Notes under the pieces: generated by a model
The model's input: only the letters and a program-made list of their open reading frames with translations
The model's database searches: none
What the model was told of the DNA's origin: nothing
NCBI GenBank assembly: GCA_043809085.1
Contig: JAZDEG010000030.1
Span: forward strand, 21,378-85,377
Direction: 5' to 3'
From: Pseudomonadota bacterium
GTDB lineage: Bacteria > Desulfobacterota > Desulfobulbia > Desulfobulbales > SURF-16
DNA: 64,000 nt
In this document: one piece after another, positions 2,318-24,093 of the stretch
Layout: each line of letters starts with the position of its first letter
Position numbering within the stretch: the stretch's first letter is position 1
Position numbers and translations under genes: made by a program

Positions 2318-2917
2318 TTACAGCGCGGATTCAATAGCCTTGCTCAGCTTGGCATCAATAACTTCAACCAGATGAGCCTCACTGTAATCATTGTCTTTAC
2401 GAAGGGTCTTGGTCGTTGTGCCAAAGGCCATGCGCAGTTTCTTACTGTTGACCAACTCAAGTGCCTTATGGAGTCTTTTTTTCATTTCATCAGGCGCGAT
2501 ACCCTCGGCGTGGCCAAGGGGACCAAGCTCACGCACCTTGGCGGTGAACTCGGTGATCAGCTTGACAAAACGAGGAGCCTCAGCGGCGGAAGCCCACTGA
2601 AGATTATAGCGGGCCGGATTTACTCCGATTCCACTTAAAATTTTATGAACAAGAACATCTACACCCATTGCATCGTAATTACCTACCTGGTAATGACATT
2701 CGCCGAGTTGTCAGCCGCCGGTGAATATACCGGCCGCTCCCTCAATAAATCCTTGCAGGATGAAAGAGGGATCGATGCGTCCGGTACACATGACCCGGAT
2801 TGTTCGCATATTGGGGGGATACTGATACCTTGAAACACCAGCAGCATCTGCTGCGGCATAGCAGCACCAGTTGCAGAGAAAACCCAGTATTTTCGGGTTG
2901 AATGCTTCCTTTGTCAT
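2318..2917 (-). CDS. mvhD: MvhD/FlpD-like protein (methyl-viologen-reducing hydrogenase delta subunit family), a selenoprotein with Sec encoded by the TGA at 2711..2713.
   Basis: Track ORFs 2711..2917 and 2318..2668 are in the same frame. Read-through gives ...GAAGIFTGG-U-QLGECHYQVGNYDAMGVDVLV..., so the TGA replaces the first Cys of the MvhD GCxxGxCHY motif. Total length is 199 aa. Confidence 0.85.
2678..2694 (-). promoter_or_regulatory. Candidate bacterial SECIS hairpin for mvhD.
   Basis: On the minus strand, 16 nt after the UGA: AUUACC-AGGUA-GGUAAU. This is a 6-bp stem with a 5-nt loop containing GGU. Confidence 0.5.
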
Positions 2918-3013: not shown

Positions 3014-6000
3014 TTACAGCTCACCAAATGCCTTTATCTGGGCGTTGATCTGCTCCATGGTAAAGCCGCCCATGGAAATAGCGAATGTGGGACAACGTGA
3101 CGAGCAGATACCACACCCCTTGCAGGAAGCGGAGATGGTGTGCGCTTTCTTTATCTTGCCATCCTTTACCATTTCGATGGCCTGATAAGGACAAAGGCTT
3201 GCACAAATACCGCAACCGATACACTGTTCTTTATCAACATGAGAAACAATCGGTTCAACGGAAACATGTCCTTTGACAAGTGGAATGGCAGCCTTTGCTG
3301 CGGCAGCCTGAGCCTGTACGATGATTTCATCTAGAGGCTTTGGTGAATGCGCCAGTCCGCACACATAGACACCATCCACGGCAAGTTCAACCGGCCGCAA
3401 TTTCACATGGGCTTCCAGATAGAATTTGTTCTCATTGATCGGAATTTTCAACAATTTGCTCAGAGTTTCGGTATCTTCCGGCACAATGCCGACACTCAAG
3501 ACGATGAGATCAGGGTTCAGACTGACCTCTTCCTGGAGCAAGGTGTCAAAGAAAGACACATTCACATTATTGCCTTTTTTTGTCACTTCCGGTTTGCGGT
3601 CAACCTCGTAGGGAATGAAAACAACGCCTTTTCCCCTGGCTTCCAGATACGCATCTTCTGCATATCCATAGGTGCGCATATCCCGGTAGAGAACAATAAC
3701 CTGGGATTTCGGGTTAATCTCTTTTACCTTCAGGGCATTTTTCACTGCGGTATTACAGCAGACCTTGCTACAGTACTTCAGATCATCGCCGCGGGATCCC
3801 GCGCACTGAATCATCACAACCGAGTCCGGCGCGCGATTTTTTGCTTTACCGGCAAGCGTGGTTTCCAGTTCATGCTGAGTGACAACCTTTGTTGACTGTC
3901 CCAGCATATACATATCAGGGCGATGTTCCCTGCCGCCGGTGGCAACAATGATGACCCCATGATCAATGGTCAGCTCGGTTTCCTTCTTGCCTTTAACGGT
4001 TTTAACCACGGAAGAGAAATTACCGACAAAACCATTGACCGCCACCAGTTCACCGCTGGTCAATACCTCGATTTTTTTGTTTTTCTCAACCCTTTTTACC
4101 AGGTCTTTGATCATCTGGGGCGTATTTTCCCCTTTGATGGTGTCCTGCATTTTTGCCGCATGACCGCCGAGATTATCGTTCTTTTCAACCAGATAACATT
4201 GGAAACCCTGGTCGGCCAGATTTTCCGCAGCAGTGAGACCGGCAATACCTCCACCAATGATCAGTGCCTGGGGGGTAACAGGGACAGTCTGTTCCGGAAG
4301 GGGTCGCAAGTGACGTGCCTTGGCAATTCCCATCCGTACCAGGTCTTTTGACTTAAGGGTTGCCGCATCAGGTTCCTGTGCATGAACCCAGGAACACTGA
4401 TCCCGGATATTAACCATTTCAAAAAGAGAACGGTTAAGCCCTGCATCTTTCAAGGTTTCCTGAAAAAGCGGTTCATGGGTACGGGGTGAACAGGCGGCCA
4501 TGACGATCCTGTTCAACTTGTGCTCTTTGATCTTGTTCTTGATGATCTCCTGGGCATCTTGGGAGCAACTGTAAAGGCTGTCACTGAAATAGGTGACATT
4601 TTCCATTCCGCCGGCATAATCAACAACATTCGGCACATCAACCGTAGAGGCGATATTGATACCGCAACGGCAGACAAAAACGCCGATACGAACCTCATCG
4701 TCTTCGTTTACGAGCTGCTCAACAGGATATTCCTTATGAACAATGCCGGTGCCGCGCTGTTGTTTAATGAGCGCTGCGGCGAGGCCTGCTGCGGCACTTG
4801 ACTGGGTGACGCTTTCAGGAATGTCTTTTGGCCCCTGAAAGGCGCCCGCAACAAAGATGCCCTCGCGGCTGGTATTTAAGGGAGCAAAGGTGTCGGTCTT
4901 GCAGAAATCATATTTATTCAATTCAAAGTTACCGATCCTGGCAAGATCCTTGGCGCTTTTTGGCGAGTCGAGACCAACGGACAGAACTACCATGTCAAAG
5001 GCATCAAAATGATGACTTTCGGCAAGGGTTGAATAGGTCAGTTTAAGCTTTTTGCCCCACGGCATGACATCGGCAACTTTGGCGCGAACGAATTTGATGC
5101 CGAACAGTTCCTCCGCCCGGATGCGAGCCGCATCGAAATCCTTGCCCTGGGTCCGCATGTCCATGTAAAAAATGGTGATTTCGCATTCAGGATCATGTTC
5201 CTTGGCAACCATGGCTTCTTTGATAGCATACATGCAGCACACGGAGGAGCAGTATCCATTGTCACAGCCAAGATCACGGGACCCGACACACTGGATAAAG
5301 GCAATTTTTCCTGGGTGGCGTTTATCGGAAAGGCAGCGAACCTCACCCATGAAAGGTCCCGAGGGGTTGAGCAGTCTTTCGAACTCCAGGCTGGTGACAA
5401 CATCGGGATGTTTGCCGTAACTGTATTTGGCGAGGGCCTCGTCCGGCACCTTGCCGAATCCTGGAGCCATGATCACCGCCCCGACATGAAGTTCCCGTTC
5501 AACCGGTTTCTGTGAAAAATCGATGGCATGACTGCGGCAGACCGGTACGCATATCTTGCATGTATCGTGCTTCAGGTGAAGACATGCGTTTGGATCAATA
5601 AAATAGGTGGCCGGTACCGCCTGGGGATAATCAATATGAATCGGTCGGGTAATAGACAGTCCTTCGTTATAGCTGTCCACCATATGGCGCGGACAATATT
5701 GAGTACACAGACCGCAGGCCGTGCATTTATCGGCGTCGATGTAACGGGGGTTCAAGCGGACTTTGGCTTTGAATTCACCAGGTTTTCCATCAAGAGAAAG
5801 AAAATCGGCGTTGCTCAGAATTTCAATATTGGGAGACCGACCGGCCTCAACCAGCTTCGGAGCGAGGATTCAAAGAGAACAGTCGTTGGTGGGAAATGTT
5901 TTATCAAGCTGAGCCATGGCGCCACCCACTGCTGCTGATTTTTCCACCAGATAGACATAATATCCCAGTTCGGTTAGATCGAGGGCGGCCTGCACCCCGG

Positions 6001-6058
6001 CAACACCGCCGCCGACAACCATCACAGATCCGGACCTGTGTTCCATTGCTTTACCCAT
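3014..6058 (-). CDS. hdrA: Large tandem HdrA-like flavoprotein (heterodisulfide reductase subunit A family) with a C-terminal 2x[4Fe-4S] domain. Selenoprotein, with Sec encoded by the TGA at 5870..5872.
   Basis: Track ORFs 5870..6058 and 3014..5755 are in the same frame. Read-through gives ...[30 protein letters not shown]...[18 protein letters not shown]. There are two FAD-binding modules ([14 protein letters not shown] and [14 protein letters not shown]). An HdrA N-terminal-type Cys cluster ([11 protein letters not shown]) lies between them. The C-terminus carries [12 protein letters not shown] and [12 protein letters not shown]. Total length is 1014 aa. Confidence 0.85.
5834..5848 (-). promoter_or_regulatory. 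Candidate bacterial SECIS hairpin for hdrA.
   Basis: On the minus strand, 21 nt after the UGA: GAGGCC-GGUC-GGUCUC. This is a 6-bp stem including one G-U pair, with a GGUC tetraloop. Confidence 0.5.
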
Positions 6059-9100: not shown

Positions 9101-10353
9101 AGTTTCATCCTGATAAGATTAAGCATCAGCCGGGTATTTTCGTTGGAGCGGGAGCAGAGATCCACTGGTGACGCCATCAGCAAAAACTGAACGCCTTCAT
9201 GTTCCGCCTCGCGAATGTTACGCTGATTGGCCGGCATTTCTATCTGGGCGCGGGGATAGACAACGGTAACCTCATGCACGCCGAGTCGAAGAAGCGAACG
9301 GGCGACCTCCATAGCAATGTTGTTTCCGCCAATGACAGCAGCTCGGCGGCCCAGATCAAGCTTTCTTCCGTCGTTAACCATGCGCAGAAAACGGGTCGCC
9401 GTATAGACATGATCATAGTTGGCGCATGGAATATCAAGTGGTTGATCAACAGAAGCGCCGATGCCGATAAAAATTGCATCAAACCCTTGATCTTGAAGAT
9501 CCTGCAAGGAAAAATCTTTTCCCCACTGCTGACTGAGACGTATAGAGATCCCCATTTTCAGAATGGAGTTCACTTCATAATCAAGCACATCCTTGGGTAT
9601 TTTGTAATTGAGAAAACCATAGCGCAAAGCACCGCCTAGTTGAGGGGATGCCTCAAAAATAGTGACGTCATGCCCCTTCCGTGTCAGGAAATAGGCCGCG
9701 GTCAAACCGGAAGGGCCGCCACCGATAACCGCCACCCTTTTTCCGGTAGGTTTGTCCTTGGGAATATTGAGTTCAATCTCATGATTCATGCACCAATCGG
9801 CGACAAATCTTTTGAGATGGTTAATGGAAACAGGTTCATCGACCAAGAGACGGCGGCACCGCGTTTCACAAAACCTGGGACAGACACGTCCCACGGAAAA
9901 AGGAAGAGGATTGCGCTCCATTACCAGTCGAAGGGCCTCCTCATACTCTCCCCTGGCAATATGGGCAATATATCCCTGGACATTTATCTGACCGGGGCAG
10001 GTAAGATTGCACGGAGCCTTACAATCACCGAAATGGGTATTGGAAATGTCGGCAAGGCGTTGTTTTCGATGGGTAATTACCGGTTTGGAGTCGGTCTCAA
10101 TTTCCATCCCATCCTTGGCAAAGGTAATGCAGGCACGGAAAAGCCCTTCTGTTGAAAGTGTTGATTTAAGTCTATATTGACTGAAATCTTTTATTTCAAC
10201 AGCACATAAACCGCATGGATTCTCAGAAAGGGTGTTTTTTACGTAGCACAGGGTCGGGATATTAATATCCGAACGTCTGGCAACTTCAAGAATTGTCAAA
10301 CCAGCCTCGGCGACAATCTCCATGCCGTTCATTTTAAGGGTTATCGTCGACAT
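6130..10353 (-). CDS. fdhA: Formate dehydrogenase alpha subunit (Mo/W-bisPGD) fused to an N-terminal 2Fe-2S ferredoxin domain, a GltD/NfnB-like NAD(P)H-FAD oxidoreductase domain and 4Fe-4S domains. Selenoprotein, with Sec encoded by the TGA at 7825..7827.
   Basis: Track ORFs 7825..10353 and 6130..7776 are in the same frame. Read-through gives ...[33 protein letters not shown]..., compared with the E. coli FdhF motif CARVUHGPSVAGL. The N-terminus has a 2Fe-2S motif (PTLCY...NPCGLCAVE) and a GltD-like region (RVAVIGGGPSGLTAAYFL...VFAGGD). It also has CIFCQRCLRVC, CVSCGKCVDNC and TTCPYCGTGC. Total length is 1407 aa. Confidence 0.9.
7796..7812 (-). promoter_or_regulatory. SECIS hairpin for fdhA.
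   Basis: The minus strand reads UGA CAC AUU CCC ACG GUUGCA-GGUCU-UGCAAC. From memory of the E. coli fdhF SECIS (UGACACGGCCCAUCGGUUGCAGGUCUGCAC), the spacing and the GUUGCAGGUCU core are the same. Confidence 0.75.
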
Positions 10354-10469: not shown

Positions 10470-11825
10470 TCAGGCTGCTGGCTTCCACTCCTTGAGGAAA
10501 GCAGGAAGATGACCGGCCTCGCGAGGACCGATGGTTATCGTCCATTCGGCAAGCTCTTCTTCAAGTTCTCCCTTGATGCTGGCAAGGTATCCGGGGATAA
10601 TAAGTTCACGATGTTTCACCTTGTCAAGGACGCCGGATTTCTTGATGAACTGCGCGATCATATCTGCGCCGAACTTGCCTGCCGCCCATGCGGTCAGCAC
10701 GGAAAGTCCTTCAGTATCCTTGATCAACAACCAGGAGGGAACCTTGCTGCCTTCGATTTCTCCTGAAACGATGAAATAGGTGAGGGAAAAGTTGCAGGTG
10801 ATGAGGACGGGAGAATTTTCACCCGGGCCATTAATACTGTAAACGTCTTCCTGTACGACCATGGGGCGCTGTGGATCAGTGTAAATATTGAGCTGCTCGA
10901 GCAAGAGAGGAAAGAGAATATCGCCCTGCAAATCGGAAAGCACGACAATGCCGGAATATTTGGCAATAAGGACGGAAGCGATCATTGCCTCCATCATAAT
11001 ATCATCGGTCATCTCACAGGGAAAGGCAATCAACGGAAACCCGAGAGGTTTGAATTTGGTCTTGATTGCGGCTCTTCGGGAAACCACATTATCCTCAAGT
11101 GCTGCTCTCATGGTTCGAGCACCGGTATCGATTACCAAGTCTTTGAGTCCTTCGGTCTGCAGTTTTTCGGAAAGATCTACTGCACCATCAAGATTGGTTC
11201 CTCGCAACCCCAGAGGACAGCCGCTTTCTTTTGCCATAGCAGCCATGGCCGAAGCATTTTCTAATGTTGCGCCATATAAAAGGGGTTTGCGTTCTCCGCA
11301 GATTTTTGCACCTTCCGCAAGATTTTCCGCCTTTTCACTCATAAGAATGAGTGAAGCGGTAACCGCTTCGGCAAGAACTTTTTTGATCAGTGCAGTAAAT
11401 TTGCCCTGATCCCCGTCAGCGTCCTTAATCGCTATCAGATCAGCCTTCATCAGGACGCCGACCCTTTCGTAGCGAAGCTTATTGAAACGCTCTATGCGCC
11501 CGTCAACATCGGCGCCATTCATGGCCGTGCTGACCAGAACAGCGATACCGGTAGGGTTTTCAAAACGTTTCTCATGACGGAACAAGCAGGTTTCGCCACC
11601 AGTGGTAAAGGTGTTCTCGCCGGAACCTATTTTGATCGTTCTGACCGGCGGAGCGGAAGCCTCACCGATTGTCGCCTTGGTTTCCTCGGAAACATAAGGA
11701 CATTTTTCAATTTCAGCCTGCCCGGCGGCAACTTTCATGGCAAAGGCAAGACAGGTTGGAATCCCACACTCCCCGCAGTTCTTTTTGGGGAGCATTTTAA
11801 GGATTTGTATACCAGTAAGAGCCAT
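10470..11825 (-). CDS. acsC: Corrinoid iron-sulfur protein, large subunit (AcsC/CdhE).
   Basis: 451 aa. The N-terminus MALTGIQILKMLPKKNCGECGIPTCLAFAMKVAAGQ...CPYVS is the characteristic AcsC 4Fe-4S motif. Confidence 0.9.
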   Translation of the reverse strand: MALTGIQILKMLPKKNCGECGIPTCLAFAMKVAAGQAEIEKCPYVSEETKATIGEASAPPVRTIKIGSGENTFTTGGETCLFRHEKRFENPTGIAVLVSTAMNGADVDGRIERFNKLRYERVGVLMKADLIAIKDADGDQGKFTALIKKVLAEAVTASLILMSEKAENLAEGAKICGERKPLLYGATLENASAMAAMAKESGCPLGLRGTNLDGAVDLSEKLQTEGLKDLVIDTGARTMRAALEDNVVSRRAAIKTKFKPLGFPLIAFPCEMTDDIMMEAMIASVLIAKYSGIVVLSDLQGDILFPLLLEQLNIYTDPQRPMVVQEDVYSINGPGENSPVLITCNFSLTYFIVSGEIEGSKVPSWLLIKDTEGLSVLTAWAAGKFGADMIAQFIKKSGVLDKVKHRELIIPGYLASIKGELEEELAEWTITIGPREAGHLPAFLKEWKPAA

Positions 11826-11875: not shown

Positions 11876-14080
11876 CTACATAACAGTTTCCATTTCAAGG
11901 GCAGGATGTCCTACCTTTTTGAGAAACGCCAGCACCTCTTCTTCGGTTGTGCCCACTTCCTCATCCGCAATCATGTCATACAGCCCGGGCATACCGAGCG
12001 CTTCACAACGTGCGATCAGTTTTTCTCTGAGCTCTTCCTTCAGCATTTTGGGCAGCCAGACAACCCGTTTTAATCCGCCTTCAGCCAAAAACAGCTTTGG
12101 ACTGGTAAGAAAATGCTTGCTGACACCCATGAATCCGGGTGTCTGGGCTCCACCTCCAGCCATACCGGCAAGAGAAGTAAATTTCATACCGCTCGGGGTC
12201 ATCCCCATATAATCGCGGTTAACAACCATGATGCCGTTACACTGAGGGAGCATTGCGGCAATGGCCTCGAAACAACCGCAGGCGGTCATGGGATTATTCA
12301 TCAGGGAGTAACAGCTTACCGCCGGTACCGCGCCGCGTGAAGCCTGGTTGACAAAATCATTGATGCCGATGAAATCACCTAGAACCGGATCCACACATTC
12401 CCCTTTCTGAATGGGCTGATTCGGACCGGTGGGGTTGATCTGGAATGAAGCTTTTCCGTCAAGCCAGTTATAGGCTCCGCACATGCCGACCCTTTCCGGG
12501 GTAATGACGCATACGTGGCTGGGGGCAAAAGACTGACATAGGGTGCATGAGTAGAAAACTTCCTCGGTTTCGTCGGTCATGTTGCCAAGGCGAAGATCCC
12601 TTTCGGCATAGACCTTTTTGGCGAGCTCCTGCACCTCTTCTACCTTATCCTGTTCCGTGTAAATCTTAACCTGGACCTTATCGAGAATAGCGCCGAATTC
12701 CTGGTGCAATTTGCCGTGAAGAACCTTGCCGATATGTTTGAAGGAAAATCCCTTTTCAACAGCAGCCTTGCCGATACGGATCCACATGATGTTCCGCTGA
12801 CCGATGTGCATGATGCCCTGGATATAGTTGATCAGATGATGGAACTGGCGTTCCAGGATCGGCTCAAAATCGGACTGCATCTCACGTCCGGCAACCTCGA
12901 CAAGGATGGCAATGGGCAGATTCTGTCCCTGGCTGATATCGGAAATATCCTTACCCACCAGGATAACTTCGCCATCGGTAACTTCGGACATATCCTTTGA
13001 GATAAGAACCTCGACGCCGCTTGTCCGTCCACCGCCGCATTCCATGAAGAGATCGTCTTTTCTGATTCTCTCCCCCTCAAAAGCAGGACCGAAGGCCATG
13101 GGAATATCGATTTTGGTAACATTGACTTTCAGGCCGCGCACCTCGATCGCCCTCTGTACGATTTCCTCGTGGGGAACATTGCTCACAACGTGTTCGTAAG
13201 TGCAGATACCGGTGGGAAGAACCTGAGGGATATCGTAATCGGAAATGGTCGGGAACCCCCAGTTGATTGCACCGGCGGCATTGGCATACCATTCATCACT
13301 GACCTGACCGAAGGCCATAACAAAAGCAAAAGTCCTGTCCTTGTTGTAAATGAGGTTGCCCCGGTAATCACCGGGTTTTATTCCACCAAAAGCCATGGCG
13401 ACACGGCAGGCGAATCCTATGGCAAAAACCGCGGTGGTATAGCTTTCTCCAAATGGAACCAGACGTGTGCCCCATCCAACCTGGACATTGTTTTTCACGA
13501 GTTGTTCCGCCATCCTGATGCCGTTGGAGTGGTCATGCATGAAGATGTAAAGATTTTTTTCCTGCAACTCGAGTGCGATTTTACTGGCGACCTCCTTGTC
13601 CTCGGGTGAGCCCATGATCGCAGCAAAACCTGGAGCGGTTCCATCAACGAACTCAACACCACGTTTTCTGAAAATAACGTCGTCCGCTGCGCCAAGCCAC
13701 AGGTTGGAACCTGCCGGATCCTCGGTTTTCGTGTAGAAATCAGGCTGTTCAAGATAGCGAATCGCCTCGAACATCTCCTCCGCAAAAAATGTTGCCATCC
13801 CTGCATCCAGGGCGGGGGCAAGATACGGAAGCCAGATATTATCGCTCACCAGTTCAGGCAGAAGTTTCCGGCATTCCTGGAAAATATCCTTCATATCTCC
13901 AAGTTTTTCCACCTTTGCTCCCAGCATACTGTATATAACCGGCAGAAAATATGCTGTATTGGGGAAAGAAACCGCCTGTTCAGGTCCATATTTCTTAATA
14001 GCCGCTTCAAATTTTTCCTCGGCCATATCTACAATTTTGTGGGCGCCTCGGATAGCAGCTGAACAGATTATTTTTGACAT
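11876..14080 (-). CDS. acsB: Acetyl-CoA synthase subunit of CODH/ACS (AcsB/CdhC).
   Basis: 734 aa. It carries the A-cluster region ...CTLCQSFAPSHVCVITPERVGMCGA...NPMTACGCFEAIAAMLPQCNGIM... and is collinear with Moorella AcsB as I remember it. Confidence 0.9.
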   Translation of the reverse strand: MSKIICSAAIRGAHKIVDMAEEKFEAAIKKYGPEQAVSFPNTAYFLPVIYSMLGAKVEKLGDMKDIFQECRKLLPELVSDNIWLPYLAPALDAGMATFFAEEMFEAIRYLEQPDFYTKTEDPAGSNLWLGAADDVIFRKRGVEFVDGTAPGFAAIMGSPEDKEVASKIALELQEKNLYIFMHDHSNGIRMAEQLVKNNVQVGWGTRLVPFGESYTTAVFAIGFACRVAMAFGGIKPGDYRGNLIYNKDRTFAFVMAFGQVSDEWYANAAGAINWGFPTISDYDIPQVLPTGICTYEHVVSNVPHEEIVQRAIEVRGLKVNVTKIDIPMAFGPAFEGERIRKDDLFMECGGGRTSGVEVLISKDMSEVTDGEVILVGKDISDISQGQNLPIAILVEVAGREMQSDFEPILERQFHHLINYIQGIMHIGQRNIMWIRIGKAAVEKGFSFKHIGKVLHGKLHQEFGAILDKVQVKIYTEQDKVEEVQELAKKVYAERDLRLGNMTDETEEVFYSCTLCQSFAPSHVCVITPERVGMCGAYNWLDGKASFQINPTGPNQPIQKGECVDPVLGDFIGINDFVNQASRGAVPAVSCYSLMNNPMTACGCFEAIAAMLPQCNGIMVVNRDYMGMTPSGMKFTSLAGMAGGGAQTPGFMGVSKHFLTSPKLFLAEGGLKRVVWLPKMLKEELREKLIARCEALGMPGLYDMIADEEVGTTEEEVLAFLKKVGHPALEMETVM

Positions 14081-14111: not shown

Positions 14112-16760
14112 TTATTTTCCGCTTGTAAGGCTGTTAATCAGAGACTTTGTGAGGTTAACGGCTTTCGGATGTCTCATAATCAGGACCTCACCACCAGAAA
14201 GCAGCATACAGGTAGCGGTTATAGCTTCCATCATGACACCTCGTGTTTCCATATTTCCTATCATGTCATCAGAGGGAAGCCGACATTCTTTCGCCTTCCA
14301 GACCTCCCGTCCGAGATTGCAGATAATCGGCACCTGCAGTTTTTCGTCCTGCTGGGTGAGAGCTGCCAAGCGGATGCGCTCCATGACTGAGTAGGTGTAC
14401 TCGATACCGTAACCAAGGGCGCCGACAGAAGGATCCATCATGACGGAACTAAGGGGTACACCGAGGTTCTGGAGGAGAATATTGAGCTGTTTGGCAAGAT
14501 TGACATCGATGGGGGAAGCTGCTACCAGTGGATTCTGGAATGCCATGGCCGTGGCACCCAGAGAACGATAATTGGCATCGCCCAACGGCGCCAGACAGAC
14601 TTTTTTGTCCCCGGTCAGGGATGTAATCTCGCGCAACGTTTCCGTGTCCTTTTCTGCATTACCGCAACCCCAAACAATAACCGGCACGTCAATGTTGTTG
14701 ATGACATCGGCCGCTGCCTTGGCCGCCTCGGCAGCATTTCTGTTCATACCATTGGGGTCGGTGCTCACAAGGGAAAGACAGATTGCCTCGGCATTGTATT
14801 CATTGATGCACTTTCTTGCCCAGGCAAGAGGGTTATCGAGAACACCCTGATAATGACGGGCAAGGGAATCAGGCCACTCATCCGGTTTGACATCAAGGAC
14901 ATCCAAGGCAATGACCGGCTTGTTGGGCATTGCACCTTCGAAAAGGTGAAACGGCAAAGAAGCTTCTCCGCCGATCTTAAGCGCTTTATCACCGCTTCCC
15001 AGCAGCACCTCTTTAATGGCGCCGGAATAATTTATTTTATAAGAATCCGCAGGGATCTTGGCAGCGCGCTCGACTAGAGTTGTTTTCTCAACCGCCAGCT
15101 CTTGAGCAGCGAGTTCCGCCGGAACAGCTACTGCGGCGGGTGCAGTTTTTGCTTCAGCAGCTTTCTTGGCCTCGTCGGCAGCCTTTGCCTCAGCGACCTT
15201 CTTGGCTTCTGCCTCGGCCTTTGCTTCAGCAGCTTTCTTGGCCTCGTCGGCAGCCTTTGCCTCAGCGACCTTCTTGGCTTCTGCCGCGACTTTTGCTTCA
15301 GCAGCTTTTTGGGCCTCGTCGGCAGCCTTTGCTTCAGCAGCTTTCTTGGCTTCTTCCGCAGCTTTCTCAGCAGCTGCTTTCTGCACAGTATCATCAACTT
15401 TTGCTTCAGTTGTTTTTTTGACCTCTGTAACAGCCGGGCGAGCGGGAGCAGCACCAGCATCCTGCGGCTGACGTTTCAGTACTGCTTCGGCGCTTGCGAA
15501 ACTTGACAGCGCCTCAAACTGATCGTCGGTCAAATTAAAGGCTTTCCTCAGGGCATTAAGGCCCATCTGCACAGATTGCAACGCCATTTGACGTTCTCTT
15601 TCGTTCATCTCATGCTCTCCTGCATCTTCATATTCTGTGGCAAAGCCGGCTGGAGCCGATACGGCCGCGGCAGCGCGCATTTTTTCAACCTCTTGTCGGG
15701 CCTGGGCGATAATTTTTTCAGCCTCAACCCTTGCTTCAGCAAGAAGCTTCTCATGATCAACCGCTTTTGCCGTTTCTGCGGGAGCGGTTACGATTTCTAT
15801 AGGAGTTTCGACCGGTATTTTTGCAACAGCTGCATCTTCTTCAAACACAGGTCTTGGTGCAAGTTTTGCCCGTTTGACTATCTCGGGAACAGCTTCCTCC
15901 CACTCGATAGCCATGATGTGCACTCCGGATACACCTTTTATTTCCTTGACCCGATTGATAATATCAACACAGATGTTGATACCCTCTTCCTGTTTGTCCT
16001 TGGCATCCTTCATCCGACTGAGGACTTCATCAGTCACATCCATACCGGGGACAAAATTTTTCATGTACTTGGCCATGCCAAGGGATTTGGGAGGGGTAAC
16101 ACCGGCGAGAATATACGCCTTTTCATGGATACCCAGATCACATACCATTTCCATGAAGCGAGAGAATTTATCCACATTGTAAATAATCTGGGTCTGAACA
16201 AAGTCAGCGCCGTTAGCTACTTTTTTGCCGAGACGTGGGGCTCTGAATTCAAAAGGATTGGCAAAAGGATTGGCGGCACAGCCAAGGAAAAGGCGAGGCT
16301 CGGCAGATTTAATTTCCTCACCGCACTGAAATTTCTTATCATCACGCATCGCTCGAACCATGCCGAGTAGCTGGATCGAATCCATGTCGAAAACACCTTT
16401 GGATCCGGGATGATTGCCGAATTTCTGATGATCACCGGTCAAACACAACAGATTTTTCAAGCCAAGAGCAGCGGCTCCCAGAATGTCACTCTGCATGCCG
16501 ATTCTGTTGCGGTCACGGCATGTCATCTGAATGACCGGTTCAACCCCTTCCTGAAGCGTGATAAGACCGGCCGCGATACTGGACATGCGGACAATTGCTG
16601 TCTGGCAGTCAGTAATATTGACGGCGTCAACATGACCTTTCAGTATCCGTGCCTTTTTCCTGACAATTTCAGGGTCGCTGCTTTTCGGCGGCCCCAGTTC
16701 CCCGGTTACGGCAAAGCCACCGGAGGTCAGAATTTTCTCTAAACGACTTCCCGATTTCAT
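14112..16760 (-). CDS. metF-acsD: Fusion protein of N-terminal methylenetetrahydrofolate reductase (MetF) and C-terminal corrinoid Fe-S protein small subunit (AcsD/CdhD), joined by a long Ala/Glu/Lys linker.
   Basis: Single 882-aa ORF with no internal stop. The N-terminal ~300 aa look like MetF (VTGELGPPKSSDPE...NITDCQTAIVRMSS...CLTGDHQKFGNHP). The C-terminal ~320 aa look like AcsD (LKIGGEASLPFHLFEG...VPVIVWGCGNAEKD...DPSVGALGYGIEYTYSVMERIRLAAL...LIMRHP). Confidence 0.85.
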   Translation of the reverse strand: MKSGSRLEKILTSGGFAVTGELGPPKSSDPEIVRKKARILKGHVDAVNITDCQTAIVRMSSIAAGLITLQEGVEPVIQMTCRDRNRIGMQSDILGAAALGLKNLLCLTGDHQKFGNHPGSKGVFDMDSIQLLGMVRAMRDDKKFQCGEEIKSAEPRLFLGCAANPFANPFEFRAPRLGKKVANGADFVQTQIIYNVDKFSRFMEMVCDLGIHEKAYILAGVTPPKSLGMAKYMKNFVPGMDVTDEVLSRMKDAKDKQEEGINICVDIINRVKEIKGVSGVHIMAIEWEEAVPEIVKRAKLAPRPVFEEDAAVAKIPVETPIEIVTAPAETAKAVDHEKLLAEARVEAEKIIAQARQEVEKMRAAAAVSAPAGFATEYEDAGEHEMNERERQMALQSVQMGLNALRKAFNLTDDQFEALSSFASAEAVLKRQPQDAGAAPARPAVTEVKKTTEAKVDDTVQKAAAEKAAEEAKKAAEAKAADEAQKAAEAKVAAEAKKVAEAKAADEAKKAAEAKAEAEAKKVAEAKAADEAKKAAEAKTAPAAVAVPAELAAQELAVEKTTLVERAAKIPADSYKINYSGAIKEVLLGSGDKALKIGGEASLPFHLFEGAMPNKPVIALDVLDVKPDEWPDSLARHYQGVLDNPLAWARKCINEYNAEAICLSLVSTDPNGMNRNAAEAAKAAADVINNIDVPVIVWGCGNAEKDTETLREITSLTGDKKVCLAPLGDANYRSLGATAMAFQNPLVAASPIDVNLAKQLNILLQNLGVPLSSVMMDPSVGALGYGIEYTYSVMERIRLAALTQQDEKLQVPIICNLGREVWKAKECRLPSDDMIGNMETRGVMMEAITATCMLLSGGEVLIMRHPKAVNLTKSLINSLTSGK
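15151..15366 (-). repeat. Three tandem 72-nt units (internal 36-nt sub-period) inside the metF-acsD linker. They encode AEAKKAAEAKAADE-type repeats.
   Basis: Units start at 15151, 15223 and 15295. The first 63 nt of units 1 and 2 are identical (gcttcagcagctttcttggcctcgtcggcagcctttgcctcagcgaccttcttggcttctgcc). Unit 3 is diverged. Confidence 0.9.
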
Positions 16761-16824: not shown

Positions 16825-18816
16825 TCAAGCCGGCCCATGACAGCCGACGTCCTTCAAGGGACCGCCGGTGCCAAGGTCGCGACGCATATCCATGTCAAAG
16901 AGTACACGCTCTTTCTTCTTGTTAATGCCGAGAGCGTCACGCTTTGCCTCGATCTTTTCAATCATGATGCGGGCGATCTCCTTGGGATCTTCAGCCACAT
17001 TCCAGTGTGCGCCATAAGTGCCCATCATGTCGTCAAGAAGAAACTTATTGAAACTTTTTGCACCGGAGGTTCCGAGGTTTTGAAAGACGACCTGGGCACC
17101 GCTTGCGACAAAATACTGGCCGATGGCAACAGCTTTTTCACTCATCCAGAGAGGAGCGGTGCCGATGGCGGGCAGGTCGCTGATATCGTCGCCAAGTCCG
17201 CCTTCGCGCACCATCTCGGTGGCGGCGATGAGAATACGGCTGTTATCAACACAGGAACCCATGTGGAGAACCGGCGGCATGCCCACGGTTTCGCATACCT
17301 CCCGAAGTGAATCACCACAGAAGCGTGCGGCCTCAGGATTGACAAGCCCTGCCCGGCCAAGTGAAGTTGCCGCGCAACCGGTGGCAAGGACTAGTATGTT
17401 GTTTTTCAGCAGCTCTCTGACAATTATTTCGTGGCTGTCATCGCCAAGCTTGAAGTTGTCGCAGCCGACAATGGCGGCAACACCACGGATGCGGCCGTTG
17501 ATAATATTGTCGTTAAGGGGGCGGTAGCTGGCCCGGAAACGTCCACCGAGCATGTAGTTGATGGTTTCATGAGAGAAACCGACGACGACATCAAACTTCG
17601 AATCCTTGGGGATGAAAAAATCACCGCGCTTTTTGAAGTTCATAATGGCTTTGGTCAGAATATTCTTGGCAGATTCGATGGCCTTGTGCTCGTCAAACTG
17701 AATATGCACAGCACCGTCCATTTTGGCACGGTAGTTGGTGGTGATAATGTCGGTGTGAAAGCTTTTGGCAACCTCAGCGACCGACTGCATAACACACTGT
17801 ACGTCAACAACCATGGCCTCAACAGCGCCTGTGGAAAGAGCGATTTCCTGCTGAACAAAACCTGCGGCAACCGGAATGCCGCGACGCATGAGAATTTCGT
17901 TACCCGTGCAGCACACACCCGCAAGATTGATTCCCTTGGCGCCCTGCTTGGCGGCAAGTTCAAGCATATCGGGCTCTTGAGCCGCAATACACAGGGATTC
18001 GGCCAAAAGCGGCTCATGGCCGTGTACGGTAATGTTTACCTGATCAGACTTGAGGACGCCGAGGTCGACGATGGATCGTCGAGGAACCGGGGTGCCGAAC
18101 ATGATGTCGGTCAGTTCGGTGGAAAGCATTGATGAGCCCCAACCGTCACTCAGTGCGCAACGTGATGCCTGCAGCATGATGTTGTGATATTCCTGATCCA
18201 CTCCCATATGGGTACGGTGCATCGTTTCCACGACTTCACGATCAATACCGCGCGGTTCTATGCCGAGATTTTTCCAGATGGCCTGTCTTTTCGGAGTGGC
18301 TCTCTTCAACATGGAAAGAGGGGTGTTTTCCTGTTTGCCGAACTCTGCCAGGGCTTTTTCTCCTAGTTCCACGGCAATTTCATTGACCTCACGCCCTTCA
18401 GTGGCAACACCAAATACAGCAGCAAGTTTTTTAAGTTTGTCAACATCCTTAATCTGGTGGGGGCCGTTTCCTTTAGCTGTTTCGATAAAGCCGCGCACCA
18501 TTTCCCGGGCATGGTCGGTATGGGCGGCGGAGCCGGCGGCAATTGTCCTGGCAAAGTTTCGGGCAGCCACGGTGTCGGCGGTTGCGCCACAGATGCCGAT
18601 CATTTCATCCACGCCGTCAATAATCTGGCAGGGACCCATATTACAGTTACGGCAGCAAGTGCCGCCTGATCCGAAAAGACAAGCGGACATGCCGCGCGCC
18701 TTAACCCTGTCATAGGCGGTTATGACATTTTTTGCCAGGTCTTTGGAGAGAACTTCCTTTGTGGAGGTACAGGTAATGTCCGTGCACCCTTCACATCCGT
18801 TACGTGAAATTGCCAT
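16825..18816 (-). CDS. acsA: Ni-dependent carbon monoxide dehydrogenase catalytic subunit (AcsA/CooS).
   Basis: 663 aa. It has the N-terminal B/D-cluster Cys motifs (CLFGSGGTCCRNCNMGPCQI) and typical CODH core motifs (HGHEP, GVCCTGNE). Confidence 0.9.
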   Translation of the reverse strand: MAISRNGCEGCTDITCTSTKEVLSKDLAKNVITAYDRVKARGMSACLFGSGGTCCRNCNMGPCQIIDGVDEMIGICGATADTVAARNFARTIAAGSAAHTDHAREMVRGFIETAKGNGPHQIKDVDKLKKLAAVFGVATEGREVNEIAVELGEKALAEFGKQENTPLSMLKRATPKRQAIWKNLGIEPRGIDREVVETMHRTHMGVDQEYHNIMLQASRCALSDGWGSSMLSTELTDIMFGTPVPRRSIVDLGVLKSDQVNITVHGHEPLLAESLCIAAQEPDMLELAAKQGAKGINLAGVCCTGNEILMRRGIPVAAGFVQQEIALSTGAVEAMVVDVQCVMQSVAEVAKSFHTDIITTNYRAKMDGAVHIQFDEHKAIESAKNILTKAIMNFKKRGDFFIPKDSKFDVVVGFSHETINYMLGGRFRASYRPLNDNIINGRIRGVAAIVGCDNFKLGDDSHEIIVRELLKNNILVLATGCAATSLGRAGLVNPEAARFCGDSLREVCETVGMPPVLHMGSCVDNSRILIAATEMVREGGLGDDISDLPAIGTAPLWMSEKAVAIGQYFVASGAQVVFQNLGTSGAKSFNKFLLDDMMGTYGAHWNVAEDPKEIARIMIEKIEAKRDALGINKKKERVLFDMDMRRDLGTGGPLKDVGCHGPA

Positions 18817-18835: not shown

Positions 18836-19723
18836 TTATATCAGCCCTGCGGCCTGCTTGGCGGCCTGGACTGTATTTTTCATCAACATGGTAATGGTCA
18901 TGGGGCCGACGCCTCCGGGAACGGGGGTAATGGCGGCAGCCTTATCCTTCACGCCATCAAAGTCAACATCACCGGCAAGAATCGCTTTTCCTTCGGCGGT
19001 CATGCCGATACGATTGACTCCGACATCAATGATGACAACTCCATCCTTGACCATATCAGCTGTGACCATCTTCGGCACACCCACGGCAGCGATGATAATG
19101 TCGGCCCTTCGGCAGTGAGAAGCCATATCCTTGGTGCGGGTATGACAGATAGTGACGGTGGAATTGCCCCCTGCCCTTTTCTGCAGCATCAAATTTGTCA
19201 TAGGTTTGCCGACGATGTTGCTGCGGCCGATGACGACAACCTCGGCGCCGCTTGTTTCGATGCCGGATCGGGTCAGAAGTTCAAGAATGCCATGGGGGGT
19301 ACAGGGGAGAAAGCACTTTTCGCCCAGCACCATCTTGCCCACGTTAACCGGATGAAACCCATCCACATCCTTCTTTGGGTCTATTGCATAAAGCACTTTC
19401 CCCTCATCAATATGCTTTGGCAGGGGAAGCTGAACAAGGATGCCGTTTATCTTATCGTCGTTATTGTATTTATTGATCAGATTCAGTAATTCCTGTTCAC
19501 TGGTGTCGGCGGCGAGTGTTACCTGTTCGGAATGAATGCCGAGAGCATGTGCGGTTTTGTTTTTGGCGCTTACATAAGACTGGGATGCAGGGTCCTCACC
19601 GACAAGTATGGTCACCAATCCTGGAACCACGTTGTGTTTTTCCTTCAACTCAGCAACTTCGACTGTAAGTTCTTCGCGAATTGTTTTGGCGGTTTCGGTT
19701 CCGCTGATAATTTTTGCCGTCAT
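18836..19723 (-). CDS. folD: Bifunctional methylene-THF dehydrogenase / methenyl-THF cyclohydrolase.
   Basis: 295 aa. FolD hallmarks are present: PGLVTILVGEDPASQSYV, GILVQLPLP, VVVIGRSNIVGKP, TPVPGGVGPMT. Confidence 0.95.
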   Translation of the reverse strand: MTAKIISGTETAKTIREELTVEVAELKEKHNVVPGLVTILVGEDPASQSYVSAKNKTAHALGIHSEQVTLAADTSEQELLNLINKYNNDDKINGILVQLPLPKHIDEGKVLYAIDPKKDVDGFHPVNVGKMVLGEKCFLPCTPHGILELLTRSGIETSGAEVVVIGRSNIVGKPMTNLMLQKRAGGNSTVTICHTRTKDMASHCRRADIIIAAVGVPKMVTADMVKDGVVIIDVGVNRIGMTAEGKAILAGDVDFDGVKDKAAAITPVPGGVGPMTITMLMKNTVQAAKQAAGLI

Positions 19724-22329: not shown

Positions 22330-24093
22330 TTAGAAAACGCCTTTCACCTTTCCGGTTTCGACATCAACGTCAATACGACGATAGGCCGGGTCAGATGCAG
22401 TGCCCGGCATCAGGCTGATGGCGCCTGCAACCGGAACAACGAATCCCGCACCTTTATAGGTGAGGATATCTTGAATCGGCAGGGTCCAACCCTTGGGCAC
22501 ACCTTTCAGCTTGGGATCGTGGGACAGGGAGAGGTGGGTCTTGACCATACAGGTACCCATTTCCTTCATCTCCGGATCAGCAGCCATCCGTTTCAGTTTG
22601 GCCTGGGCATCGGCGCTGTAGCTGACTCCGTCCGCACCGTACACCTCTTTGGCAATAAGCTCGATACGTTTCTCCAGCGGGGTGTCCAGTTCGTAGAGGA
22701 ACTTGAAGTCATTTGGCTCTTCACAGGCATCGACAACCGCATCGGCGAATTCAAGAGCGCCGTCGCCGCCATGCTCCCAGTGGCGTGAAAGGGCAACCCG
22801 CGCGCCGGCAGATTCACAGAGCCTGCGGACCGCCTTGATCTCGTTGTCGGAATCAGTATAGAAGGCGTTGATACAGACCACCGGATTGATGCCCGCCTTC
22901 TTGACCGTTTCGATATGGTGCAGAAGGTTCTTGCATCCTTCTTCGACCCAGCCGACATTCTCTTTCTTGTACTCTTCCGGCATGGGCTTACCCGGCACCG
23001 GAATCGGGGCGCCGCCATGGCACTTGAGGGCACGGATTGTGGCAACGACAACGGCACAGTTCGGCTTCAGCCCGGAATAGCGGCACTTGAGGTTCCAGAA
23101 CTTCTCAAAGCCGATATCCGCGCCGAAACCGGATTCTGTAACATTGTAATCGGCAAGCTTTAGAGCTACACGATCAGCGATGACCGAAGACTGGCCGATG
23201 GCGATATTGGCGAAAGGACCGGCATGGACGATGACCGGCTGGCCTTCAATAGTCTGCAGCATATTGGGATTTAAGGCCTCAACCATCCAGGCGGTCATGG
23301 CGCCGGCCACATCGAGATCCGTGGTGGTGACGGGTCGATCCTGGCGGTCATAGGCCACGACGATCTTGCCGATCCGTTCGCGCATGTCCTTCAGGTCCCT
23401 GGCAACGGACAGAATGGCCATGATCTCGGAGCTGACGGCGATGGCGAATTTGGACTGCATGGTATAGCCGTCCATCTTGCCGCCAATGCCGATGGTGATA
23501 TTGCGCAGGGCCTGGGCGCAGAAGTCGATGATCCAGCCGAACTCAACTTTTTTCGGATGGATGTCGAGACGACGGAGATTTCGCATGGCCAGCTGCTCAT
23601 CCGTATAATTTGCCTCATGCTGCATGCGGGAAGTAAGAGCTACCATGCCGAGATTGTGGGCATTCATGATGGCGTTGATGTCGCCGGTAAGACCAAGGGA
23701 GAAGGGAGTCAAAGGGATACACTGAGCAAGACCTCCGCCTGCGGCGCTGCCTTTGATATTCATGGTGGGACCGCCGGAAGGCTGGCGAATTGCACCGATA
23801 ACACTTTTGTTTCTTTTGCCGAGTCCCTGCACCAGGCCCATGGCACAGGTGCTCTTCCCTTCACCGAGAGGAGTGGGGCTGATGGCCGTTACATCGACAT
23901 ATTTTCCGTCGGGACGATCTTTCAGGCGATCAAGGATTTTACGGTAATCAAGTTTGGCAACATAATGGCCGTGGGGCAAGAGCTCTTCCTTTTCCAGGCC
24001 GAGCTTTTCAGCAAGCTCATAAACAGTTTTCATGTTTTTTTCTGAATCTTCCGCAATTTCCCAATCTGCATGTTTGGTCGGGTCAAGAACCAT
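22330..24093 (-). CDS. fhs: Formate-tetrahydrofolate ligase.
   Basis: 587 aa. The sequence is collinear with Fhs ([33 protein letters not shown]). A strong RBS, AAAGAGGAGGAAG, precedes the ATG. Confidence 0.95.

What the first reader, a model, noticed from the sequence alone, without database searches (positions are those of the whole stretch)
14112..16760. MetF is fused to the corrinoid Fe-S protein small subunit AcsD in one 882-aa polypeptide
Seen in the sequence: one uninterrupted ORF. Its first ~300 aa are MetF-like and its last ~320 aa are AcsD-like. A ~260-aa low-complexity, helix-prone Ala/Glu/Lys segment joins them.

Established knowledge: MetF produces methyl-THF. AcsE then methylates the AcsC/AcsD corrinoid protein, which feeds ACS.

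Inference: the fusion tethers the last methyl-branch reductase to the methyl acceptor, skipping over the methyltransferase step. This suggests a scaffolded super-complex or a means of co-regulating stoichiometry. No metV-like small subunit is encoded here, so the electron donor for this MetF is open; HdrA/MvhD downstream are candidates.
Basis: partly seen in the sequence, partly recalled or inferred. Interest (0 to 1): 0.7.

Follow-up and report, generated by a model that had tools for sequence, protein, structure and literature searches.

The report
Known MetF–AcsD fusion, Wood-Ljungdahl operon
The 882-residue protein joining methylene-tetrahydrofolate reductase to the small subunit of the corrinoid iron-sulfur protein is real and conserved in hundreds of sulfur-cycling bacteria, but the fusion was already noted in genome papers in 2008 and 2016 and its function has never been tested.

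Summary
Window 14112-16760 (-) is one 882-aa ORF with a complete MTHFR domain (aa 6-298) and a complete AcsD domain (aa 572-880).

It is not an artefact. At least 120 database proteins and 39 full-length genomic loci share the architecture, including the finished Desulfurivibrio alkaliphilus AHT2 chromosome.

It is not new. Melton et al. 2016 list a "mthfr/acsD ... fusion" for D. alkaliphilus, following Pierce et al. 2008.

- All fusions form one clade, nested among MetFs that sit in hdrA-mvhD-metV-metF modules.
- The ancestral operon keeps MetV directly upstream of the fusion and AcsE downstream, and has TPR repeats in the linker.
- The window's Desulfobulbales type has moved AcsE elsewhere, and probably MetV too, and replaced the TPRs with an AEAKK-repeat helix.
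- A roughly 50-aa helical island in the linker is as conserved as the enzymes and is found only in these fusions.
- No internal start codon precedes AcsD.

Most likely function (inferred, untested): a long tether that holds an Hdr/MvhD-linked MTHFR on the corrinoid protein.

The parts
14112..16760 (-). metF::acsD fusion CDS, 882 aa (ATG at 16760, TAA at 14112-14114)
   Evidence: ORF list; Pfam MTHFR + CdhD; 100% match to NCBI MAG protein P0001
15846..16760 (-). MetF (MTHFR) domain, aa 1-305. Catalytic Glu21 (GELGPP), Asp110 (LTGD) and Gln191 (TQ) motifs are present
   Evidence: PF02219 1e-37; alignments to human and T. thermophilus MTHFR; 76-98% identity across type-A fusions; E21, D110, Q191 invariant
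15048..15845 (-). Inter-domain linker, aa 306-571, with no Cys residues
   Evidence: Type-A linkers are 250-312 aa with 0-1 Cys and type-B linkers 384-452 aa with 0-3 Cys; low AF2 confidence
15465..15755 (-). Conserved, fusion-specific helical island, aa 336-432 (core GEHEMNERERxxALxSVxxGLxALKKAxxLTDDQFEALxxFAxAEAxL)
   Evidence: 62-80% identity across type A. Its HMM hits all type-B fusions (E 1e-13 to 4e-9) and nothing else in 79 loci. The only real hits among 1.84e9 representatives are fragments of the same fusion. Predicted helices at 336-367, 382-408 and 412-421
15126..15410 (-). Ala/Glu/Lys repeat (AEAKKAAEAKAADE-like), aa ~451-545, predicted as one long alpha-helix. The DNA is a 36/72-nt tandem repeat
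   Evidence: TRF array 15148-15375, period 72, 3.2 copies, 89% matches; composition A 44%, K 22%, E 17%; AF2 helix 463-533 at low pLDDT
14112..15047 (-). AcsD domain (CFeSP small subunit), aa 572-882, plus the stop codon
   Evidence: 2H9A_B E 6e-81, 4DJD_D E 1e-79; NCBIfam delta-subunit models cover 572-880
16825..18816 (-). CODH catalytic subunit (AcsA/CooS), directly upstream
   Evidence: Prismane PF03063; TIGR01702 E 3e-180
11876..14080 (-). Acetyl-CoA synthase AcsB, directly downstream
   Evidence: NF040764 at 1078 bits
10470..11825 (-). AcsC, CFeSP large subunit, the partner of the AcsD domain
   Evidence: NF003195 E 1.3e-179; PF04060 + PF03599
6130..10353 (-). Formate dehydrogenase fused to an NfnB/GltD-like N-terminal module, 1407 aa, with in-frame TGA (Sec) at 7825-7827
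3014..6058 (-). HdrA-like flavoprotein, 1014 aa, with in-frame TGA (Sec) at 5870-5872. Candidate electron-input partner of the MetF domain
   Evidence: NF040770 HdrA2; motif NDCSL*IL versus NDCSICIL in L086; synteny with MetF in all relatives
2318..2917 (-). MvhD/FlpD, with in-frame TGA (Sec) at 2711-2713
   Evidence: PF02662 split over two ORFs; read-through motif FTGG*QLGECH
18836..19723 (-). FolD
22330..24093 (-). Formate-THF ligase Fhs
   Evidence: PF01268 E 1.6e-230

Best explanation
This is the Desulfobulbales-type ortholog of the already recorded 'mthfr/acsD' fusion.

What is shown:
- It is a single bifunctional polypeptide.
- The N-terminal domain is a catalytically intact methylene-THF reductase. 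It belongs to the clade that normally works with MetV, HdrA and MvhD.
- The C-terminal domain is a complete small subunit of the corrinoid iron-sulfur protein, encoded next to its partner AcsC.
- The linker contains a conserved, fusion-specific helical island followed by a long AEAKK-repeat helix.

What is inferred:
- The AcsD end pairs with AcsC, so the reductase is held on a tether of roughly 10 nm or more at the CFeSP.
- CH3-THF would then be made next to the AcsE/CFeSP methyl-transfer site, in fixed 1:1 stoichiometry.
- The island (and the TPR repeats in the ancestral type) would serve as a docking site for another pathway component.
- Electrons for the reductase would come through HdrA-MvhD, probably via a MetV encoded elsewhere in the genome.
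For: Identity and integrity:
- Both domains are confirmed.
- The MetF domain is 80-94% identical across type-A fusions, with E21, D110 and Q191 invariant.
- The frame is kept in 39 full-length fusions despite 250-452-aa linkers.
- There is no in-frame ATG, GTG or TTG in the 80 codons before the AcsD domain in the window, and no conserved start with an SD elsewhere.
- The finished D. alkaliphilus genome has the same gene and the same synteny.
- The literature names the fusion.

Single origin and selection:
- The fusions form one clade in an NJ tree of MetF domains.
- All of them share the island, which occurs in no other protein context.

Electron input:
- Standalone homologs and ancestral-type fusions always follow hdrA-mvhD(-fd-mvhD2)-metV.
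- HdrA and MvhD are in this operon.
- A detached Fd-MvhD2-MetV module exists in Desulfurivibrio.

Pathway completeness and function:
- AcsE exists elsewhere in type-A genomes.
- Desulfocapsa sulfexigens grows autotrophically by this pathway, and Desulfocapsa MAGs carry type-A fusions.

Spacer character of the linker:
- AEAKK tandem repeat and a predicted 71-residue helix.
Against: - I found no proteomic or biochemical evidence that the full-length ~96-kDa protein persists in cells.
- The AF2 model is of low confidence (pLDDT 62, pTM 0.43) and shows no reliable inter-domain or island docking.
- In the window's lineage AcsE, and probably MetV, are unlinked from the operon. That fits poorly with a tightly co-assembled complex.
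- CH3-THF is freely diffusible, and most Wood-Ljungdahl organisms manage without a fusion, so any kinetic benefit is unproven.
- A MetV was not demonstrated in this genome or in strain AHT2, and one Desulfobulbaceae draft genome is reported to lack it.
Confidence: 0.6

Rival explanations
1. Co-expression only. The gene fusion merely guarantees equal synthesis. The exposed, largely disordered linker is then cut by proteases, and MetF and AcsD work as separate proteins as in other acetogens.
For: The linker is long, poorly conserved over most of its length (25-50% identity) and predicted with low confidence. AcsE and MetV are unlinked in this lineage. No proteomic evidence for the full-length protein was found.
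Against: A cleaved spacer would not need a ~50-aa island conserved at 74-80%, shared by both operon types and unique to the fusions. It would also not need TPR repeats. The fusion has persisted across a range of Thermodesulfobacteriota lineages as one clade.
Confidence: 0.15
2. Internal translation. AcsD is made separately from an in-frame internal start, so the cell contains both the fusion and free AcsD.
For: Such internal initiation is known for other multi-subunit systems (a CRISPR type I-D paper surfaced).
Against: The window has no ATG, GTG or TTG in frame in the 80 codons upstream of the AcsD domain. Other loci show no positionally conserved start codon with a Shine-Dalgarno.
Confidence: 0.03
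3. The MTHFR-like domain is not a reductase. It is a methyl-THF-binding module that replaces AcsE as methyl donor to the corrinoid, since AcsE is missing from the operon.
For: There is no Pterin_bind/AcsE gene in the 64-kb window or within 10 kb of any type-A fusion.
Against: AcsE orthologs exist elsewhere in D. alkaliphilus, D. dismutans and Desulfobulbaceae MAGs, and acsE is highly transcribed in a Desulfobulbaceae epibiont. In the ancestral operon AcsE and the fusion coexist. The catalytic Glu, Asp and Gln of MTHFR are invariant. The domain is 57-74% identical to standalone MetFs in metV-metF modules.
Confidence: 0.03
4. Assembly or sequencing artefact: a missed stop or frameshift in the repetitive linker joins two separate genes.
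For: The linker contains a 36/72-nt tandem repeat, and this kind of sequence is prone to misassembly.
Against: At least 120 database proteins and 39 complete loci from independent projects show the same architecture. So do a finished isolate genome and 16 contigs in the collection that carry its exact protein, including a separate assembly of run SRR019227.
Confidence: 0.01

Closest known systems
'mthfr/acsD' fusion of Desulfurivibrio alkaliphilus AHT2 (ADH85530.1 / UniProt D6Z1V5, 897 aa) and delta proteobacterium MLMS-1 (Melton et al. 2016, PMC5016858; figure after Pierce et al. 2008)
   Same: Same domain order, the same A/E/K linker with the conserved island, about 73% identity, and identical synteny: PilB-FolD-CODH-fusion-AcsB-AcsC-FDH(Sec)-HdrA(Sec).
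   Different: Only sequence divergence and a few residues of linker length. This window is a further member of the same orthologous group.
Ancestral-type MetF::AcsD fusions (Seep-SRB2, Thermodesulfobacteriaceae, 'Desulfobacterales' and other Thermodesulfobacteriota MAGs; loci L022-L028, L032-L037, L041, L044, L047, L050, L086/87)
   Same: The same two domains and the same conserved island. MetF domains are 77-84% identical to the window's and fall in one clade with it.
   Different: Size is 840-1091 aa. The linker carries TPR repeats and Pro/Glu/Lys-rich segments instead of the AEAKK helix. MetV, a 2x[4Fe-4S] protein, a second MvhD and HdrA-MvhD lie directly upstream, and AcsE follows AcsC.
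HdrCBA-MvhD-MetVF methylene-THF reductase complex of Moorella thermoacetica (Mock et al. 2014; recalled from my own knowledge, not re-read here) and the hdrA-mvhD-metV-metF modules seen in loci L051-L079
   Same: The MetF domain is 57-74% identical to the standalone MetFs of such modules. HdrA and MvhD are encoded in the same operon.
   Different: Here MetF is covalently joined to AcsD. MetV is not adjacent and not in the window. HdrA-MvhD sit after the formate dehydrogenase rather than before MetF.
Corrinoid iron-sulfur protein AcsC/AcsD of Carboxydothermus hydrogenoformans (2H9A, 2YCL) and M. thermoacetica (4DJD-4DJF, in complex with the methyltransferase)
   Same: The C-terminal 310 residues align over the whole small subunit (E 6e-81 and 1e-79). 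AcsC is encoded nearby, after acsB.
   Different: Canonical AcsD is a free-standing ~310-aa protein. Here it carries a 570-residue N-terminal extension.
YitJ-type bifunctional homocysteine S-methyltransferase/MTHFR (NCBIfam NF006396)
   Same: It is the best NCBIfam match for the MetF domain (222 bits, aa 4-284). It is also a natural precedent for fusing this kind of MTHFR to a downstream methyl-handling module.
   Different: The fusion partner is different (a homocysteine methyltransferase domain), the domain order is different (MTHFR is C-terminal), and the pathway is methionine synthesis.

Membership tests
Methylenetetrahydrofolate reductase (Pfam PF02219) | Full-length profile match above the gathering score | tested here: met
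   130.5 bits against a cutoff of 24; profile positions 1-286 of 287
Methylenetetrahydrofolate reductase (Pfam PF02219) | Catalytic Glu (E. coli E28), folate-binding Asp (D120) and Gln (Q183). The E. coli numbering comes from my own knowledge | tested here: met
   The GELGPP, LTGD and TQ motifs align with the corresponding motifs of T. thermophilus and human MTHFR. E21, D110 and Q191 are invariant in 31 fusions
Methylenetetrahydrofolate reductase (Pfam PF02219) | Flavin binding and CH2-THF reduction activity | not testable with these tools
   Needs purified protein
Hdr/MvhD/MetV-linked MTHFR (MetFV type) | Sequence falls among MetFs that are encoded in hdrA-mvhD-metV-metF modules | tested here: met
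   57-74% identity to 22 standalone MetFs. 20 of them have MetV detected directly upstream; the exceptions, L054 and L055, gave no MetV hit
Hdr/MvhD/MetV-linked MTHFR (MetFV type) | metV gene adjacent to metF | tested here: not met
   No PF12225/MetV in the window or within 10 kb of any type-A fusion. It is met in ancestral-type fusions. A detached MetV module exists in Desulfurivibrio
Hdr/MvhD/MetV-linked MTHFR (MetFV type) | hdrA and mvhD in the same gene cluster | tested here: met
   HdrA at 3014-6058 and MvhD at 2318-2917 on the same strand, downstream of FDH
CFeSP small subunit AcsD / CdhD-delta | Complete TIM-barrel small-subunit sequence | tested here: met
   Aligns to 2H9A_B residues 7-302 of 310, E 6e-81. 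NF003376 scores 372.6 bits against a cutoff of 280
CFeSP small subunit AcsD / CdhD-delta | Partner large subunit AcsC and acetyl-CoA synthase encoded alongside | tested here: met
   AcsB at 11876-14080 and AcsC at 10470-11825
CFeSP small subunit AcsD / CdhD-delta | Forms a heterodimer with AcsC and supports methyl transfer | not testable with these tools
   Needs biochemistry or structure determination
Published mthfr/acsD fusion (Pierce 2008; Melton 2016) | MTHFR N-terminal and AcsD C-terminal in one ORF, located between CODH and AcsB, with a pulE/pilB gene in the cluster | tested here: met
   Window gene order is identical to D. alkaliphilus locus L089. The abbreviation list of PMC5016858 names both the fusion and pulE

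The most novel reading that the evidence does not exclude
The fusion is the covalent backbone of a Wood-Ljungdahl super-complex in Thermodesulfobacteriota. The fusion-specific linker island (plus TPRs in the ancestral form) would dock AcsE, ACS or the Hdr-MvhD-MetV module. A flavin-based electron-bifurcating methylene-THF reductase would then be physically coupled to methylation of the corrinoid protein, and methyl-THF would be handed over without entering the bulk pool.
Probability: 0.2. Interest if true: 0.6.

Novelty: already known. Interest (0 to 1): 0.3.

Why it matters
As a discovery it adds little. The fusion has been drawn in operon figures since 2008 and sits in public databases with both domains annotated.

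It still matters in three practical ways:
- Annotation pipelines name the gene either 'MTHFR' or 'ACS delta subunit', and they name AcsE 'dihydropteroate synthase'. Pathway reconstructions for Desulfobulbales (possibly including cable bacteria) can therefore wrongly score AcsD, MetF or AcsE as missing.
- The electron donor and energetics of methylene-THF reduction remain an open question in Wood-Ljungdahl bioenergetics. A natural fusion that pins this reductase to the CFeSP, in cultured organisms such as D. alkaliphilus and D. sulfexigens, offers a handle for pulling down the native complex.
- The conserved linker island is a concrete, testable candidate docking element.

Tried and rejected
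1. Assembly artefact or frameshift: rejected by 39 complete loci and a finished genome.
2. Internal start for a separate AcsD: rejected. There is no in-frame start codon in the 80 codons upstream in the window (two earlier script attempts failed on a bad motif).
3. AcsE replaced by the MetF domain: rejected, because AcsE orthologs exist in type-A genomes.
4. 'MetV lost in type A': I first concluded this, then had to soften it after finding the detached Fd-MvhD2-MetV module in Desulfurivibrio. I could not link that module to strain AHT2 or to this genome.
5. ORF 1300-1899 as a MetV substitute: no Pfam hit, and it is not MetV-like.
6. The island in other protein contexts: only fusion fragments and spurious repeat proteins were found.
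7. The AF2 model, to find docking of the island: confidence too low to use beyond secondary structure. No fold search was run for that reason.
8. Literature: ten full-text searches found no functional study, only one passing mention. Pierce 2008 and Kjeldsen 2019 are not held. Thorup 2017 does not discuss the pathway.
9. An exact look-up of P0067 returned nothing. Its cluster mate P0370 worked.
Full report
OBSERVATION.
The window holds one uninterrupted 882-aa ORF at 14112..16760 on the minus strand.
- Pfam places an essentially full-length MTHFR domain at aa 6-298 (E 1e-37) and a CdhD-family domain at aa 584-830 (E 7.6e-43).
- NCBIfam ACS-delta/AcsD models cover aa 572-880. The best MTHFR-type model is the C-terminal half of YitJ-type bifunctional enzymes.
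- The C-terminal part aligns over the whole solved CFeSP small subunit (2H9A_B residues 7-302 of 310, E 6e-81; M. thermoacetica 4DJD_D, E 1e-79).
- The N-terminal part aligns with human and T. thermophilus MTHFR and keeps the GELGPP, LTGD and TQ motifs. From my own knowledge these motifs contain the catalytic Glu, the folate-binding Asp and the Gln of E. coli MetF. E21, D110 and Q191 are invariant in 31 aligned fusions.
- The ATG at 16760 has a weak SD. The TAA stop is at 14112-14114, and acsB follows 31 nt later behind a GGAGG.

CONTEXT.
On the same strand the order is ThyX, Fhs, a PilB-like ATPase, FolD, CODH, the fusion, AcsB, AcsC, a 1407-aa NfnB-like::FdhA formate dehydrogenase, HdrA and MvhD. 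The last three each carry one in-frame TGA inside a classic Cys/Sec motif. None of the ORFs of at least 150 aa that I scanned across the 64 kb, nor the small ORFs near HdrA, encodes AcsE (Pterin_bind) or MetV (PF12225). A tblastn of the whole window with AcsE and MetV queries found neither.

NOT AN ARTEFACT AND NOT RARE.
- A search of 5.8 billion proteins returned 803 hits with E <= 1e-10. The best 120 are all 849-918 aa with both Pfam domains. They come mostly from Desulfobulbaceae and Desulfurivibrionaceae MAGs, plus Desulfurivibrio alkaliphilus.
- A scan of one genome per species gave 79 loci. Of these, 39 contain a complete fusion ORF whose linker length ranges from 250 to 452 aa, always in frame.
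- The finished D. alkaliphilus AHT2 chromosome (CP001940) has an 897-aa ortholog (ADH85530.1 / D6Z1V5) in the same synteny. That exact protein is carried by 16 contigs in the collection, including a separate assembly of sequencing run SRR019227.

ALREADY DESCRIBED.
The D. alkaliphilus genome paper (Melton et al. [quoted passage not shown] The paper states that the figure follows the clusters defined for delta proteobacterium MLMS-1 in Pierce et al. 2008. Pierce et al. is not held here, so the 2008 date rests on that citation and on my recollection of its operon figure.

Ten full-text searches found no functional, proteomic or structural study of the fusion.

Other genome papers on relatives do not mention it:
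- The 'Ca. Desulfobulbus rimicarensis' paper reports 'two copies of metF', no metV, acsABC, and a highly transcribed acsE.
- The D. sulfexigens paper labels the gene next to CODH simply as acetyl-CoA decarbonylase/synthase.

From the gene order in L089, the fusion should be DaAHT2_0826 and CODH DaAHT2_0827, which is the reverse of the text of PMC5016858. This is an inference from gene order, not a checked locus tag.

TWO OPERON TYPES, ONE ORIGIN.
Annotating all loci with the window's proteins showed two layouts.

Type A (the window; Desulfobulbaceae, Desulfurivibrionaceae and Desulfocapsa MAGs):
- FolD-CODH-fusion (863-926 aa)-AcsB-AcsC-FDH-HdrA-MvhD.
- No MetV or AcsE within 10 kb.

Type B (Seep-SRB2, Thermodesulfobacteriaceae and other Thermodesulfobacteriota MAGs):
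- (RACo)-Fhs-FolD-CODH-HdrA-MvhD-[2x4Fe-4S protein]-[second MvhD]-MetV-fusion (840-1091 aa)-AcsB-AcsC-AcsE-...-FDH.
- The linker contains TPR repeats.

Standalone homologs of the MetF domain (57-74% identical; Actinomycetota, Thermoleophilia, Dehalococcoidia, Elusimicrobiota, Bacillota, Desulfarculia) lie in HdrA-MvhD-MetV-MetF modules. MetV was detected directly upstream in 20 of the 22; L054 and L055 gave no MetV hit.

An NJ tree of MetF domains (no support values) puts all fusions in one clade inside these standalone MetFs. Type A is monophyletic and type B is basal. This points to one fusion event. Afterwards the window's lineage lost the TPR segment, gained the AEAKK repeat, and dispersed MetV and AcsE.

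THE LINKER.
- Across 25 type-A fusions the enzyme domains are 49-98% identical per 20-residue block, while most of the linker is 25-50% identical.
- The exceptions are aa 341-360 (62%) and aa 381-430 (74-80%), which are conserved at enzyme-like levels.
- An HMM of this island hits every type-B fusion (E 1e-13 to 4e-9) and no other ORF in 79 loci.
- A phmmer search of 1.84 billion representatives with the 55-aa core found only fragments of the same fusion and spurious repeat proteins.
- Window residues 451-545 are 44% Ala, 22% Lys and 17% Glu. They are encoded by a 36/72-nt tandem repeat.
- AF2 draws residues 463-533 as one 71-residue helix, but with low confidence (mean pLDDT 62, pTM 0.43). 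I therefore use only the secondary structure from the model.
- From my own knowledge, such A/E/K repeats resemble engineered A(EAAAK)n rigid spacers and TolA domain II. At 1.5 A per residue the helix would span about 105 A.
- Linkers contain 0-3 Cys, so no Fe-S cluster is expected there.

WHERE AcsE AND MetV WENT.
- AcsE orthologs (65-67% identical to the type-B copy, labelled 'dihydropteroate synthase' by NCBI) exist in D. alkaliphilus, D. dismutans and Desulfobulbaceae MAGs.
- In AHT2 the AcsE gene lies at about 2.31 Mb, roughly 1.3 Mb from the operon, near RACo and an FeS/DUF3786 gene.
- MetV homologs (55%) occur in a MAG labelled D. alkaliphilus and in a RefSeq Desulfurivibrio sp. genome. 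There they lie in a detached three-gene module, Fd-MvhD2-MetV, with no MetF nearby.
- That module is orthologous to the trio that precedes type-B fusions (Fd 47-53%, MetV 55-61% identical).
- I could not show that AHT2 or the window's own genome has this module. A MetV for this particular fusion is therefore likely but unproven.

MECHANISM.
Shown:
- One polypeptide, both domains intact, single origin, strong conservation.
- No internal start.
- Operon-level linkage to HdrA-MvhD and to AcsC/AcsB.

Inferred:
- The AcsD end assembles with AcsC, so the reductase is tethered to the CFeSP. CH3-THF is then produced next to the AcsE/CFeSP methyl-transfer site, in 1:1 stoichiometry.
- The island and the TPRs are docking elements.
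- Electrons arrive via HdrA-MvhD, with MetV if it is present.

Physiological plausibility: D. sulfexigens fixes CO2 by this pathway, and Desulfocapsa MAGs carry type-A fusions.

Rivals, in decreasing order of likelihood:
- Post-translational cleavage, so that the fusion serves co-expression only. The conserved island argues against it, but it is not excluded.
- Internal translation of AcsD (not supported).
- The MetF domain as a surrogate for AcsE (refuted by the presence of AcsE and by intact MTHFR catalytic residues).
- Artefact (refuted).

VERDICT.
The window is another member of a recorded orthologous group. The modest new content is:
- the single origin of the fusions and the two operon types;
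- the fusion-specific conserved island;
- the relocation rather than loss of AcsE, and probably of MetV.

Interest 0.3.

Noticed in passing
window 7825-7827, 5870-5872, 2711-2713 (minus strand): Three in-frame TGA codons sit inside Cys/Sec motifs of consecutive genes: FDH (HCARY*HIPT), HdrA (NDCSL*ILAPK; relative L086 has Cys at this position) and MvhD (FTGG*QLGECH). This suggests three selenoproteins in one operon. ORF callers split each gene in two.
   Followed up: partly
window 19949-22162 (-): A PilB/GspE-type ATPase with an MshEN (c-di-GMP-binding) domain and a C-terminal cNMP-binding domain sits between fhs and folD inside the Wood-Ljungdahl cluster. It is conserved at this position in many type-A loci and in D. 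alkaliphilus, where the 2016 paper calls it 'pulE'. Its role there is unexplained.
   Followed up: partly
window 6130-10353 (-): The formate dehydrogenase alpha subunit is fused to an N-terminal 2Fe-2S + NfnB/GltD-like NAD(P)H-flavin module (1407 aa with Sec). HdrA-MvhD follow it directly in type-A operons. In this lineage HdrA-MvhD may therefore serve FDH as well as, or instead of, MetF.
   Followed up: no
L025:9938-13168, L032:9881-12988 (type-B fusions): The linker of ancestral-type MetF::AcsD fusions contains two TPR-like repeats (about aa 530-660) flanked by Pro/Glu/Lys-rich segments. Type A has an AEAKK-repeat helix at that position instead.
   Followed up: partly
L083:8998-10669; L084, L085: A detached three-gene module (188-aa 2x[4Fe-4S] protein, 139-aa FlpD/MvhD, 222-aa MetV) is present in Desulfurivibrio genomes, far from any MetF. 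It lies between a SIS-CBS gene and a nitroreductase-ferredoxin gene.
   Followed up: partly
P0205, P0224, P0226, P0237; L080:8001-8891: NCBI names the AcsE methyltransferase of these bacteria 'dihydropteroate synthase', and JGI often names it 'cobalamin-dependent methionine synthase I'. The fusion is named either MTHFR or ACS delta subunit. Automated pathway calls for Desulfobulbales could therefore miss AcsE, AcsD or MetF.
   Followed up: no
L043:3181-3858 and L046:360-1037: In one 'Deltaproteobacteria' MAG, the reading frame (226 codons, stop to stop) that holds the C-terminal part of MvhD also matches the C-terminal third of MetV (residues ~153-221), just upstream of the MetF domain. This may be an MvhD::MetV fusion or a remnant.
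   Followed up: no
window 1300-1899 and 215-1228 (-): Downstream of MvhD lie a Lys-rich 199-aa ORF with a weak 'GAK system XXXCH' domain match and a GYF_2 + AIM24-family protein. Any relation to the operon is unknown.
   Followed up: no
L089 (D. alkaliphilus CP001940, 979924-1002617) versus PMC5016858: Gene order implies that the fusion is DaAHT2_0826 and CODH is DaAHT2_0827. The text of the 2016 genome paper assigns MTHFR to 0827 and CODH to 0826. This looks like a label swap, but I inferred it from order only.
   Followed up: no
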